Shown: positions 62,298 to 63,531 of the stretch, one piece after another
Layout: each line of letters starts with the position of its first letter
How positions within the stretch are numbered: the first letter of the stretch is position 1
Origin: a virus
Length of the DNA stretch: 64,000 bases
Virus record (IMG/VR): IMGVR_UViG_3300042522_000315
Span: 1 to 64,000 of that record
Strand: one strand, 5' to 3'
The notes under the pieces: model-generated
Seen by the model: the letters and a program-made list of their open reading frames with translations, nothing else
What the model was told of the DNA's origin: nothing
Databases searched by the model: none
Program-made: the position numbers and the translations under genes

Positions 62298-62478
62298 GTC
62301 GTATGATGTAAGTTTTGAAATGGTTGACAACCGCGCAGGGTTCATGCTATATTGTTTCGAAGATGACGATTGTATCTGGGAACAGTTCTTCGTGAATAGC
62401 GATGATGCTCACATGATAGGTCAGAAATTTCTTGATGGTCTATATATCAGGGGTTTTCCTGTTGACGAATTTGTATAA
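62290..62478 (+). CDS. hypothetical protein
   Basis: 62-aa coupled ORF. Confidence 0.5.
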   Translation: MVKSYDVSFEMVDNRAGFMLYCFEDDDCIWEQFFVNSDDAHMIGQKFLDGLYIRGFPVDEFV

Positions 62479-62481
62479 ATA
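62474..62481 (+). promoter_or_regulatory. late promoter TATAAATA at the head of the tRNA region
   Basis: Exact consensus 11 nt before the tRNA-like RNA. Confidence 0.7.
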
Positions 62482-62492
62482 AATATTCAAAA

Positions 62493-62575
62493 GGCCACTT
62501 AGCCGAGGTCGGCTTCTACCCGACTAGACGTAACTGGAGCTGAAAATGGGGGTTCGAATCCCTCAGTGGTCGCCA
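62493..62575 (+). tRNA. non-canonical tRNA-Arg(TCT)-like RNA lacking a D-arm, with a 23-nt variable region
   Basis: Acceptor GGCCACT/AGTGGTC-G-CCA; GTCGG-CTTCTAC-CCGAC; GGGGG-TTCGAAT-CCCTC. Confidence 0.7.
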
Positions 62576-62597
62576 ATTTTTGTAATGGAGAAAGTAA

Positions 62598-62864
62598 ATG
62601 TCTGCACCGAAGTCTAAGTCTGCTTACACCTCTAAGGGTGAACGTGAAGCAAATCGTAGTCTGTCAAAGGCTATCAAGCGTGAACGTTCCGCTATTGATA
62701 AGTGGACACTCTTGCAGAAGGCATGGTTAAAGGGTAAGAACCCGTGGGTTACTGTGCCTAATCCTAATACAGCCGACACTCGCGCACGATATGTTCGTGT
62801 TCGTGCTGAGACTGAGTGGGGTGATCCTCGCAAGGGCTTCATGTTCGGCGCAATGAAGGACTAA
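62598..62864 (+). CDS. basic hypothetical protein
   Basis: GGAG Shine-Dalgarno; YTSKGER, AW.KGKNPW.T.PNPN. Confidence 0.6.
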   Translation: MSAPKSKSAYTSKGEREANRSLSKAIKRERSAIDKWTLLQKAWLKGKNPWVTVPNPNTADTRARYVRVRAETEWGDPRKGFMFGAMKD

Positions 62865-62871
62865 ACAATAC

Positions 62872-62947
62872 GCCCCTTTAGCCCAGCGGTAGAGGCAAGC
62901 GACTTAAAATCGCTCAAGGGACAGTTCGAATCTGTCAAGGGGCACCA
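62872..62947 (+). tRNA. tRNA-Leu(TAA), short variable loop
   Basis: GCCCCTT/AAGGGGC-A-CCA; AGCGA-CTTAAAA-TCGCT; TTCGAAT. Confidence 0.9.
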
Positions 62948-63186: not shown

Positions 63187-63278
63187 CGGCGTGGGTGTTG
63201 GTACACGGGAGGGCCTTATAATCCCTTTAGCACTAGATGAGTGTTCTTGACTTGGTTCGAATCCAAGCACGCCGACCA
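63187..63278 (+). tRNA. tRNA-Ile(TAT) with long variable arm
   Basis: CGGCGTG/CACGCCG-A-CCA; loop CTTATAA; V-arm AGCACT-AGATG-AGTGTT; CTTGG-TTCGAAT-CCAAG. Confidence 0.8.
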
Positions 63279-63295
63279 ACCTTTGAGGATATATA

Positions 63296-63472
63296 ATGAA
63301 CGAATGGTTTGATAGAGGATGTTTCTGTGTTACATGGGTAGGTTTCATGTGGATTGTAGATATGCTGTTGAGTAACACTGGTGTTATCACATATAGTGCA
63401 TTGATGATTGGTGCTGTTACACTTGTTATCATAGGCCTAATCAGGCAATACTGGGCGAGAGTGACGGAATAG
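63296..63472 (+). CDS. small two-TM membrane protein (not in the supplied ORF track)
   Basis: GAGGA Shine-Dalgarno; 58 aa with two hydrophobic stretches; 3' end overlaps tRNA-Leu(CAA). Confidence 0.5.
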   Translation: MNEWFDRGCFCVTWVGFMWIVDMLLSNTGVITYSALMIGAVTLVIIGLIRQYWARVTE

Positions 63473-63531
63473 GTATACGTATCGGTCTCAAAAACCGAGT
63501 TCTGTGGGTTCGAGTCCCACCTTTCGCACCA
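63455..63531 (+). tRNA. tRNA-Leu(CAA), short variable loop
   Basis: GCGAGAG/CTTTCGC-A-CCA; TCGGT-CTCAAAA-ACCGA; GTTCGAG. Confidence 0.9.

What the first reader, a model, noticed from the sequence alone, without database searches (positions are those of the whole stretch)
62493..62575. Rearranged tRNA-Arg(UCU)-like RNA: no D-arm, D-loop-like motif relocated 3' of the anticodon arm
Seen: an intact 7-bp acceptor with G73-CCA, a perfect anticodon arm (loop CUUCUAC) and a canonical T-arm. Only 8 nt (UAGCCGAG) lie where the D-arm belongs. The 23-nt variable region contains AACUGGAGC, which resembles a D-loop with GG followed by A, and its GCUG can pair with the 5' UAGC. Known: G18G19 dock on the T-loop, and A20 is a major ArgRS identity element. 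Inference: the L-shape may be rebuilt with swapped topology, giving a functional AGA decoder that evades host tRNases, or a decoy. The intact stems and the late promoter 11 nt upstream argue against simple decay.
Basis: partly seen in the sequence, partly recalled or inferred. Interest (0 to 1): 0.75.

Follow-up and report, generated by a model that had tools for sequence, protein, structure and literature searches.

The report
Rewired, non-cloverleaf phage arginine tRNA
This 83-base gene in a freshwater T4-like phage is very probably a working arginine tRNA (anticodon UCU) in which the D-loop and one D-stem strand lie after the anticodon arm instead of before it. Many phages share this layout, tRNA finders mostly miss it, and I found no paper that describes it.

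Summary
Window 62493-62575 has a 7-bp acceptor stem with G73-CCA, a normal anticodon arm (UCU) and a normal T-arm. Only 8 nt lie where the D-arm belongs, and a 23-nt stretch with a D-loop-like UAACUGGA follows the anticodon arm.

It is neither decay nor an assembly error. Two independent metagenome assemblies reproduce it exactly. I collected 94 distinct relatives, 89 of them exactly 80 nt. All carry arginine anticodons (UCU, CCU, ACG, UCG, GCG).

Covariation supports five helices. Two are long-range: nt 8-11 with 47-50, and nt 12-14 with 36-38. Together they rebuild a D-stem around the anticodon arm.

In syntenic relatives the same promoter-tRNA-ORF slot holds either this form or a canonical tRNA-Arg(UCU). 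This phage encodes about 30 tRNAs, and no canonical tRNA-Arg was found on the 84-kb contig, which is about half the genome. Its only arginine tRNAs are this gene and a second rewired one (ACG). AGA makes up 49% of its arginine codons.

Most likely it is a functional AGA decoder charged by host ArgRS. Nuclease evasion or a decoy role remains untested.

This scan has noted the same family before on other genomes. My literature searches found no description.

The parts
62474..62481 (+). T4-type late-promoter-like TATAAATA, 11 nt upstream of the tRNA 5' end
   Evidence: 8 copies in the window, all on the + strand, against 3.2 expected on both strands. [C/T]ATAAATA is conserved at the same place in syntenic loci. 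Promoter activity is inferred.
62493..62499 (+). Acceptor stem, 5' strand (nt 1-7, GGCCACU)
   Evidence: Pairs with 62565-62571. All 7 pairs covary across 89 sequences; 98.2% of cells are paired.
62500..62503 (+). Helix H1, 5' strand (U8 A9 G10 C11)
   Evidence: Pairs with 62539-62542. Pair 10-48: GC 46, AU 40, UA 2, CG 1, none unpaired. Pair 11-47: CG 65, AU 8, UA 8, UG 5, other 3. These rank 7 and 16 in a structure-blind MI scan.
62504..62506 (+). Helix H2, 5' strand (C12 G13 A14)
   Evidence: C12-G38 and G13-C37. In this gene A14 faces A36 and is unpaired. Compensatory variants exist: A13-U37 in L057 and C13-G37 with C14-G36 in Pseudomonas phage TC6. G14 always comes with C36, and U14 always with A or G at 36.
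62508..62524 (+). Anticodon arm: stem GUCGG/CCGAC, loop CUUCUAC, anticodon UCU at 62515-62517
   Evidence: All 5 stem pairs covary. U33 and A37 equivalents are present. Every one of 94 distinct relatives has an Arg anticodon.
62525..62527 (+). Linker U33 A34 G35 (U and A conserved in at least 90% of sequences)
   Evidence: Alignment A2.
62528..62530 (+). Helix H2, 3' strand (A36 C37 G38)
   Evidence: See the H2 5' strand.
62531..62538 (+). D-loop-like 8-nt bulge UAACUGGA, with G44 G45 (G18/G19-like) and A46 (A20-like)
   Evidence: Same sequence as the D-loop AACUGGAUA of the syntenic canonical tRNA-Arg in L005. The base after GG is A in 16/16 model-found Arg genes. It is U in 8/9 Ile, 3/3 CAU and 1/1 CUU genes.
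62539..62542 (+). Helix H1, 3' strand (G47 C48 U49 G50)
   Evidence: See the H1 5' strand. U8.G50 and A9-U49 are invariant in 89/89 sequences, although the scan pattern left these positions free.
62543..62547 (+). Linker AAAAU (nt 51-55) between H1 and the T stem
   Evidence: nAAAU in the family. It was partly fixed by my scan patterns. Model-found relatives also show AAAAC.
62548..62564 (+). T-arm: GGGGG / UUCGAAU / CCCUC
   Evidence: 4 of 5 pairs covary; 98.2% of cells are paired.
62565..62575 (+). Acceptor stem 3' strand (AGUGGUC), discriminator G, encoded CCA
   Evidence: Relatives have CCA encoded or not, as ordinary tRNA genes do.
62598..62864 (+). Context only: conserved 88-aa ORF (phrog_23239, unknown function) that marks the syntenic slot

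Best explanation
The element is a functional elongator tRNA-Arg(UCU) with a rewired core.

Shown:
- It has standard acceptor, anticodon and T arms.
- Its D-stem is rebuilt from two long-range helices: H1 (nt 8-11 with 47-50) and H2 (nt 12-14 with 36-38). These enclose the anticodon arm.
- The D-loop sequence UAACUGGA emerges as an 8-nt bulge between H1 and H2.

Inferred:
- It is transcribed late from the TATAAATA promoter, probably together with the downstream ORF.
- Host RNase P trims its short 5' leader. The CCA end is encoded.
- Host ArgRS charges it, reading C35, U36, G73 and the A that follows GG in the relocated D-loop (the A20 equivalent).
- G44 G45 dock on the T-loop, so an L-like shape is kept.
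- It then decodes AGA, the phage's commonest arginine codon.

Why the core is rewired is unknown.
For: 1. Conservation with covariation.
- I found 94 distinct relatives, 89 of them exactly 80 nt.
- 96% of pair cells are paired, against 65.5% in shuffles and about 42% with slid partners.
- The top 18 pairs of a structure-blind MI scan are exactly the five helices.

2. Anticodons.
- They are only UCU (65), ACG (16), UCG (8), CCU (4) and GCG (1).
- The scan patterns did not include the anticodon.

3. Shared slot.
- The same slot (late promoter, tRNA, RBS, 88-aa ORF) holds this form or a canonical tRNA-Arg(UCU).
- L004 has a 99% identical ORF and carries the canonical gene.

4. The phage's own tRNA set.
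- The 84-kb contig has 29 ARAGORN-called tRNAs for nearly all amino acids.
- It has no canonical tRNA-Arg.
- Its only Arg genes are this one and a second rewired one (ACG) at G000 68440-68533.

5. Codon usage.
- AGA is 49% of Arg codons, and CGU/CGC/CGA together are 45%.
- The two rewired anticodons therefore cover about 94% of Arg codons, or 98% if UCU also reads AGG.

6. Identity nucleotide.
- The base after GG is A in all 16 model-found Arg-anticodon genes.
- It is U in 8/9 Ile, 3/3 CAU and 1/1 CUU genes.
- This matches the A20 (Arg) and U20 (Ile) determinants in PMC9976931 Table 1.

7. Isoacceptor sets.
- In 31 held loci a canonical Arg tRNA lies near a rewired gene.
- In 23 of these the rewired gene supplies an anticodon that is otherwise missing.

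8. Tolerance of the translation machinery. E. coli HisRS, EF-Tu and the ribosome accept a D-armless tRNA ab initio (PMC11551756).

9. Independent assemblies reproduce the element exactly.
Against: - There is no direct evidence of a mature, CCA-ended, charged RNA. The only RNA evidence is one 259-nt metatranscriptome contig covering 62512-62770, which could be DNA carry-over or an unprocessed co-transcript.
- The 3D fold is unknown. If H1 and H2 stack coaxially, simple geometry makes it hard for G44 G45 to reach the T-loop. The L-shape therefore needs a kink at the bulge (my reasoning, untested).
- The contig is only about 50% of the genome, so a canonical tRNA-Arg could lie elsewhere.
- In 8 loci a canonical Arg tRNA with the same anticodon sits nearby. 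This could mean the rewired form does something else.
- The single-sequence fold is not unusually stable, z = -0.62.
Confidence: 0.8

Rival explanations
1. It is a tRNA-like decoy or sponge. It mimics the anticodon arm and identity features of tRNA-Arg to bind or absorb a host tRNA-Arg-directed nuclease or other defence factor, and it is not used in translation.
For: - Arg-restricted anticodon loops would also suit a decoy for an Arg-specific anticodon nuclease.
- In 8 held loci a canonical Arg tRNA with the same anticodon lies nearby, for example adjacent in L047. This hints at non-redundancy.
- Phages are known to counter tRNA-cleaving defences; tRNA-cleaving defence systems are described in PMC13056530.
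Against: - A decoy does not need an intact covarying acceptor stem, CCA, a discriminator, a T-arm and the synthetase identity base (A after GG for Arg, U for Ile).
- A decoy would not be expected to be the only Arg tRNA in a phage with about 30 tRNAs and 49% AGA usage.
- It swaps with a canonical tRNA-Arg at one slot between 99%-identical relatives.
Confidence: 0.1
2. It is a cis-acting tRNA-like processing or regulatory element in the 5' UTR of the 88-aa ORF, for example an RNase P entry site that matures or stabilises the late mRNA. It has no decoding role.
For: - It lies between a late-promoter-like motif and the ORF's RBS.
- One RNA-library contig spans its 3' part and the ORF.
Against: - Most family members lie inside tRNA arrays without this ORF.
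- Strict conservation of Arg anticodons and identity bases would be unnecessary for such a role.
- A canonical tRNA-Arg occupies the same slot in relatives.
Confidence: 0.05
3. It is a decaying pseudogene of a canonical tRNA-Arg (D-arm deletion plus insertion), or an assembly artefact.
For: - Gene finders reject it.
- Close relatives carry a normal tRNA-Arg here.
Against: - Identical copies occur in other contigs and in independent assemblies.
- There are 94 distinct relatives of constant length, with compensatory changes in all five helices.
- The family model scores it 91.4 bits.
Confidence: 0.01
4. It is an ordinary class II tRNA whose 23-nt region is a long variable arm. Alternatively, it folds with a local D hairpin GCCG-AGGU-CGGC.
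For: - The 23-nt region lies where a variable arm would lie.
- GCCG (nt 10-13) could pair with CGGC (nt 18-21) in this one sequence.
Against: - The 23-nt region does not self-pair. Instead it covaries with nt 8-14.
- Nt 16-20 covary with nt 28-32, not with 10-13.
- The local hairpin is absent in most relatives, for example UAGCCGAG-GGGAG.
Confidence: 0.01

Closest known systems
Canonical class I bacterial/phage tRNA-Arg(UCU) (Rfam RF00005). Examples: the syntenic genes in L004 and L005; from memory, E. coli argU and phage T4 tRNA-Arg.
   Same: Acceptor stem, discriminator and CCA. Anticodon arm with U33, UCU and A37. T-arm. D-loop sequence AACUGGA with GG then A. Genomic slot. A near-identical acceptor stem to L004 (GGCCACU against GGCCCCU).
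   Different: Order along the chain. The anticodon arm lies between the D-stem 5' strand and the D-loop. The D-stem strands pair with a common 5' strand (nt 8-14) and not with each other. There is no 8-9 linker, and nAAAU replaces the variable loop. The structure has a three-way and not a four-way junction.
D-armless mitochondrial tRNAs (for example metazoan mt-tRNA-Ser(AGY) and nematode mt-tRNAs; PMC7609411) and the engineered 'mini HisT' in E. coli (PMC11551756)
   Same: No local D hairpin between the acceptor and anticodon stems. Both show that translation can tolerate a non-cloverleaf core.
   Different: Those tRNAs lose the D-stem and D-loop outright and are shorter and floppier. This tRNA keeps both, relocated, at 80 nt. 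It has a fully canonical T-loop and works, if it works, with bacterial machinery.
Circularly permuted tRNA genes (Cyanidioschyzon merolae; recalled from memory)
   Same: tRNA parts appear in a non-standard order in the gene.
   Different: There the 3' half precedes the 5' half, and processing restores a normal cloverleaf. Here the ends are normal, and the mature RNA itself would have the altered topology.
allo-tRNAs with 8/4 or 9/3 acceptor/T branches (PMC5389517)
   Same: Non-canonical tRNA architectures found in metagenomes and phages that standard finders mishandle.
   Different: allo-tRNAs are still cloverleaves with a local D-arm. This gene has a 7/5 branch and a rewired D region.

Membership tests
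tRNA, canonical cloverleaf (Rfam RF00005) | 7-bp acceptor stem, discriminator, 3' CCA (encoded or added) | tested here: met
   7 bp, all pairs covary in the family; G73 and CCA are encoded.
tRNA, canonical cloverleaf (Rfam RF00005) | 5-bp anticodon stem, 7-nt loop with U33 and purine 37 | tested here: met
   GUCGG CUUCUAC CCGAC; 5/5 pairs covary.
tRNA, canonical cloverleaf (Rfam RF00005) | 5-bp T stem with UUCRANY loop | tested here: met
   GGGGG UUCGAAU CCCUC.
tRNA, canonical cloverleaf (Rfam RF00005) | Local D hairpin between nt 9 and 26 | tested here: not met
   Only 8 nt lie there. The Rfam alignment deletes the D-arm. Covariation places the partner strands at nt 36-38 and 47-50.
tRNA, canonical cloverleaf (Rfam RF00005) | Score at or above the gathering threshold; detection by tRNA finders | tested here: inconclusive
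   33.3 bits against GA 29, but only in the sensitive search. Not reported with default filters. ARAGORN misses it and misses 122 of 131 family instances. tRNAscan-SE was not available.
Rewired phage tRNA-Arg family as defined here (model R1) | 80 nt; H1 (8-11:47-50); H2 (12-14:36-38); bulge UAAnUGGA; linker nAAAU; Arg anticodon | tested here: met
   91.4 bits, E = 2.8e-20, full length. Canonical tRNAs of the same genome score 33.4 bits or less with R1.
Bacterial arginine identity set (PMC9976931 Table 1) | A/G73, C35, U/G36 | tested here: met
   G at 62572, C at 62516, U at 62517.
Bacterial arginine identity set (PMC9976931 Table 1) | A20 in the D-loop variable pocket | tested here: inconclusive
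   A46 follows G44 G45 as A20 follows G18 G19, and it tracks Arg anticodons. Whether it occupies the same place in space cannot be tested with these tools.
Class II tRNA (long variable arm) | Variable region forms its own hairpin | tested here: not met
   No self-pairing is conserved. The region pairs with nt 8-14.
D-armless (mitochondrial-type) tRNA | D-stem and D-loop absent, replaced by a short connector | tested here: not met
   The D-loop motif and D-stem-like helices are present but relocated.
Circularly permuted tRNA gene | 3' half encoded upstream of the 5' half; the termini lie inside the mature sequence | tested here: not met
   The acceptor 5' and 3' strands lie at the gene's two ends in normal order.

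The most novel reading that the evidence does not exclude
The rewired core is a counter-defence adaptation. It keeps everything that ArgRS, EF-Tu and the ribosome read. It also removes the canonical D-arm and core geometry that a host nuclease, a phage host-shutoff nuclease or a modification enzyme needs in order to attack tRNA-Arg (and tRNA-Ile). The phage could then keep decoding AGA and CGN when host arginine tRNAs are destroyed. This would be a natural, widespread, non-cloverleaf tRNA fold working on bacterial ribosomes and selected by an arms race.
Probability: 0.25. Interest if true: 0.92.

Novelty: new variant of a known kind. Interest (0 to 1): 0.8.

Why it matters
[quoted passage not shown] If this family is charged and used, that rule has a natural and abundant exception. 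It would be a tRNA whose D-stem strands and D-loop are threaded around the anticodon arm, working with ordinary bacterial ArgRS, EF-Tu and ribosomes.

- **Structure.** It would give structural biology a new solution to the L-shape problem.
- **Synthetic biology.** It would offer a possible orthogonal scaffold.
- **Annotation.** It would correct phage records. These genes are unannotated in GenBank entries such as Pseudomonas phage TC6, Microbacterium phage Pumpernickel and 286 Vibrio phage records that match.
- **Biology.** It opens a testable question: why are arginine tRNAs, and in sister subfamilies isoleucine tRNAs, the ones that get rewired?

Tried and rejected
- **DNA search of the region.** blastn of the 500-nt region against isolate phages found nothing. 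Only the 83-nt element itself finds matches.
- **Single-sequence folding.** The fold is uninformative, z = -0.62.
- **RNAalifold.** It recovers only the three standard arms and not H1 or H2. Those helices rest on pair counts and MI.
- **Local D hairpin.** The GCCG-AGGU-CGGC hairpin and a class II reading were rejected by covariation.
- **RNA evidence.**
  - All runs were available only as contigs. No ends, strand or level of an RNA can be read.
  - The X17 RNA contig matches only 37 conserved nt and belongs to another family member.
  - Shares of 0.05-0.08 in the other RNA runs were not used.
- **Neighbouring ORFs.** PHROG searches gave one family of unknown function.
- **MAG contigs.** PHROG hits on the seven MAG contigs that carry family members were too sparse to say whether they are phage DNA.
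- **Tertiary pairs.** The MI scan found no convincing tertiary pair beyond the helices.
- **Literature.** Seven full-text searches and three papers read gave no description of this layout.
- **Circularity caveat.**
  - My scan patterns fixed C37-A41, U43-A46, A52-U55 and part of the T-loop. Invariance there is partly by construction.

Full report
**Context**

The window is the first 64 kb of an 84,104-base IMG/VR virus record, about 50% complete. It encodes UvsX-like and gp41-like proteins. The gp41 homologue is 60-64% identical to those of T4-like cyanophages and of Methylophilales phage Melnitz. Fourteen lake and river DNA metagenome runs hold at least 74% of the sampled words of the 1.3-kb stretch around the element, so this is a freshwater phage. 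The genome is 38.8% G+C, and nearly all long ORFs lie on the + strand.

**The observation**

- A 7-bp acceptor stem, 62493-62499 with 62565-62571.
- G73 and CCA at 62572-62575.
- An anticodon arm GUCGG/CUUCUAC/CCGAC at 62508-62524.
- A T-arm GGGGG/UUCGAAU/CCCUC at 62548-62564.
- Only 8 nt where the D-arm belongs.
- 23 nt after the anticodon arm, containing GUAACUGGAGCUG.
- TATAAATA 11 nt upstream.

ARAGORN does not call it. Rfam's tRNA model misses it with default filters. In a sensitive search it scores 33.3 bits, by deleting the D-arm and inserting 20 nt in the variable region.

Contigs from two other samples cover the element without a single difference inside it. X3 spans the whole 1.3-kb stretch. 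X6 is a 20-kb contig ending at 62707. So it is not an assembly artefact.

**Relatives at the same slot**

Sixteen viral contigs encode homologues of the 88-aa ORF that starts 22 nt downstream. Just upstream of that ORF, behind a conserved [C/T]ATAAATA, the contigs differ.
- Eight carry a canonical 77-nt tRNA-Arg(UCU): L004, L005, L006, L007, L011, L012, L014, L015.
- Six carry the rearranged form: L002, L003, L008, L009, L010, L016.
- L013 has the rearranged form about 390 nt further upstream.
- L017, the most distant homologue (43% ORF identity), has no tRNA there.

The two forms are interleaved by ORF identity.
- 100%: rearranged.
- 99% (L004): canonical.
- About 82%: both kinds.
- 71-72%: canonical directly upstream in L014 and L015. 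L013 (72%) has no tRNA directly upstream and carries the rearranged form further upstream.
- 64%: rearranged.

The canonical D-loop in L005 reads AACUGGAUA. This is the motif that lies after the anticodon arm in the rearranged form. The acceptor stems of the window gene and of the L004 canonical gene differ by one compensated pair.

Normal tRNA-Arg genes do occupy this slot in close relatives, but the rearranged version is not unique.

**The family**

- Three pattern scans of IMG/VR, none of which specified the anticodon in the first two, gave first 31 and then 94 distinct sequences.
- 89 of the 94 are exactly 80 nt before the CCA position.
- One scan of 185,579 species genomes added seven members. 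All lie on MAG contigs and none on a complete chromosome.
- The anticodons are UCU 65, ACG 16, UCG 8, CCU 4 and GCG 1. All are arginine.
- A gapless alignment of 89 sequences (A2) was tested against a five-helix structure.
  - 96.0% of pair cells are standard pairs, against 65.5% in shuffles and 37-48% with slid partners.
  - The covariation score is 0.826, against 0.206 in shuffles.
- All acceptor and anticodon-stem pairs covary, and four of five T-stem pairs covary.
- The two long-range helices are the new feature.
  - H1 pairs nt 8-11 with 47-50. U8.G50 and A9-U49 are invariant, although the pattern left 47-51 free. Pair 10-48 is GC 46, AU 40, UA 2, CG 1 with none unpaired. Pair 11-47 is CG 65, AU 8, UA 8, UG 5 and 3 unpaired.
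  - H2 pairs C12-G38 and G13-C37, plus a semi-pair 14-36.
    - G14 always comes with C36, and U14 always with A or G at 36.
    - A14, as in this gene, is often unpaired.
    - H2 shows compensatory variants in L057 (A13-U37) and in Pseudomonas phage TC6 (C13-G37, C14-G36).
- A mutual-information scan that assumes no structure ranks exactly these helix pairs as its top 18, with 10-48 seventh and 11-47 sixteenth.
- RNAalifold recovers only the three standard arms.

**Resulting anatomy (nt 1-80, then CCA)**

| Nucleotides | Part |
|---|---|
| 1-7 | Acceptor stem, 5' strand |
| 8-11 | H1, 5' strand |
| 12-14 | H2, 5' strand |
| 15 | Single unpaired nucleotide |
| 16-32 | Anticodon arm |
| 33-35 | UAN linker |
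| 36-38 | H2, 3' strand |
| 39-46 | 8-nt bulge UAACUGGA |
| 47-50 | H1, 3' strand |
| 51-55 | nAAAU linker |
| 56-72 | T-arm |
| 73-79 | Acceptor stem, 3' strand |
| 80 | Discriminator |

The two strands that flank the D-loop do not pair with each other, as in a cloverleaf. They pair with one continuous 5' strand. The anticodon arm is nested inside the D-stem, and the molecule has a three-way and not a four-way junction.

**Evidence that it decodes arginine**

1. The rest of the contig adds 24 ARAGORN tRNAs to the five in the window. Together they cover nearly all amino acids, but there is no canonical tRNA-Arg.
2. The family model R1 scores the window gene 91.4 bits.
   - It also finds a second rewired gene with anticodon ACG at G000 68440-68533, 32.6 bits with R1 and 35.0 bits with Rfam tRNA.
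   - That gene belongs to a sister subtype in which a GAAA-capped hairpin replaces nAAAU.
   - The subtype is itself widespread, with 63 distinct sequences.
3. In the phage's long ORFs AGA is 49% of arginine codons and CGU+CGC+CGA 45%. These are what UCU and (I)CG anticodons read.
4. Close relatives with 19-22 tRNAs (L009, L022) likewise have no canonical tRNA-Arg in the part held.
5. Across the 94 distinct genes, a canonical tRNA-Arg lies in the same held locus in 31 cases.
   - In 23 of these the rewired gene supplies a different anticodon. In 8 the anticodon is the same.
   - Complete complementary sets occur. L094, for example, has canonical CCU and ACG and rewired UCU and UCG.
6. R1 also finds lower-scoring rewired genes that the patterns could not find.
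   - 13 have Arg anticodons, 9 have Ile anticodons (UAU, GAU), 3 have CAU and 1 has CUU.
   - The base after GG in the relocated D-loop is A in all 16 model-found genes with Arg anticodons. These are the 13 above plus the genes of Vibrio phage D419, Microbacterium phage Pumpernickel and G000 68440.
   - It is U in 8 of 9 Ile genes, 3 of 3 CAU genes and the CUU gene (three regex mis-parses corrected by eye).
   - A20 is the strongest arginine determinant for E. coli ArgRS, and U20 is among the isoleucine determinants (PMC9976931).
   - So the relocated loop carries the identity base that fits the anticodon. This is expected of a charged tRNA and not required of a decoy.
7. A D-armless tRNA is accepted ab initio by E. 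coli HisRS, EF-Tu and the ribosome (PMC11551756). A non-cloverleaf core is therefore not disqualifying.

**Expression**

- TATAAATA occurs eight times in the window, all on the + strand, against 3.2 expected on both strands. This fits a T4-type late promoter.
- The start site and a leader of about 6 nt removed by RNase P are inferred.
- One 259-nt contig from a 2017 freshwater metatranscriptome covers 62512-62770, the 3' part of the element plus the ORF. All seven of its differences lie in the ORF. This is weak evidence of co-transcription and says nothing about processing.

**What is not known**

The 3D fold is unknown.
- If H1 and H2 stack coaxially on the anticodon stem, the arm has about the canonical length. 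The bulge would then leave the helix four pairs below its top, and A46 alone could not bridge back from the T-loop.
- An L-shape with a G44 G45-to-T-loop contact therefore seems to need either a kink at the bulge or H1 packed alongside the T stem.
- This is my geometric reasoning and not a result.

No data here bear on why the core is rewired. The eight cases of a same-anticodon canonical neighbour are compatible with it but also with ordinary tRNA redundancy.

**Known or new**

- Seven full-text searches and three papers read turned up D-armless mitochondrial tRNAs, allo-tRNAs and engineered mini-tRNAs, but nothing with this topology.
- A 2024 paper states that all known bacterial tRNAs are cloverleaves.
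- In GenBank the family members I inspected are unannotated.
  - Vibrio phage D419 is one of 286 Vibrio phage records that match the element.
  - Microbacterium phage Pumpernickel and Pseudomonas phage TC6 are the other two inspected.
  - In the D419-type records listed, and in these two, the match lies in an unannotated gap.
- Earlier reports of this same scan describe the same family on other genomes and likewise found no paper.
  - I treated them as leads and re-derived the structure, the arginine restriction of the 80-nt subfamily and the isoleucine sister genes independently.
  - One of those notes says that part of the same claim fell on later checking, without saying which part.
  - I therefore keep 'phage-only' and 'undescribed' as statements about what my searches found, not as facts.

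**Verdict**

This is a real, conserved, rewired tRNA-Arg(UCU), most likely functional (0.8). It is a new variant of a known kind, and of high interest.

Noticed in passing
L076 4440-4533 (= G000 68440-68533, outside the window): A second rewired arginine tRNA in the same phage, anticodon ACG, 91 nt. It has the D-loop-like GGUAACUGGA after the anticodon arm, and a GAAA-capped hairpin where the first gene has AAAAU. ARAGORN misses it. A pattern scan found 63 distinct sequences of this subtype in viral contigs, with the linker varying from 5 to 21 nt.
   Followed up: partly
loci L101, L104, L105, L122, L125, L133, L155, L092, L109 (coordinates): Rewired tRNAs of the same topology with isoleucine anticodons (UAU, GAU), CAU and one CUU. 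They have GGU where the arginine genes have GGA in the relocated D-loop. The layout is therefore not strictly arginine-only.
   Followed up: partly
window 62872-62947 and 63455-63531: Two 76-77-nt tRNAs with leucine anticodons (UAA, CAA) and A73 but only a 5-nt variable loop. They are class I in size, whereas bacterial tRNA-Leu is class II. Relatives L008 and L009 have the same; L010 and L022 have 83-87-nt versions of the UAA gene only.
   Followed up: no
window 63187-63278: A 92-nt tRNA with anticodon UAU, a 4-bp D stem closed by a 4-nt loop UGGU, a long variable arm and A73. Its best Rfam match is tRNA-Sec at 27.9 bits, below threshold. It is conserved in L010, L016, L040 and L043. Which amino acid it carries is unclear.
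   Followed up: no
L076 2771-2852 and L076 8333-8406: An ARAGORN 'tRNA-???' with a 6- or 8-nt anticodon loop containing UCA, and a tRNA with anticodon CUA (amber-suppressor-like). TAG ends only 3 of 81 long ORFs. Possible stop-codon suppression or recoding in this phage.
   Followed up: no
L076 8049-8244: manA RNA motif (RF01745), 58.5 bits, above its gathering score of 55.2, inside the tRNA cluster.
   Followed up: no
L076 191-258: A degenerate tRNA-like element (RF00005, 33.3 bits; no U33), enclosed by a 16-nt inverted repeat (L076 150-165 with about 259-274).
   Followed up: no
L033 3354-3712, L040 10055-10437, L043 6124-6506: Permuted (two-piece) tmRNA genes called by ARAGORN directly next to the rewired tRNA-Arg in related phage contigs.
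   Followed up: no
L273 364-443 (Pseudomonas phage TC6, MG676466.1), L074 569-648 (Vibrio phage D419), L075 583-660 (Microbacterium phage Pumpernickel): Cultured phages carry unannotated family members (R1 88.7, 83.5 and 65.8 bits). The TC6 gene lies beside a homing endonuclease gene. Pumpernickel has a 78-nt variant with H1 cut to 2 bp.
   Followed up: partly
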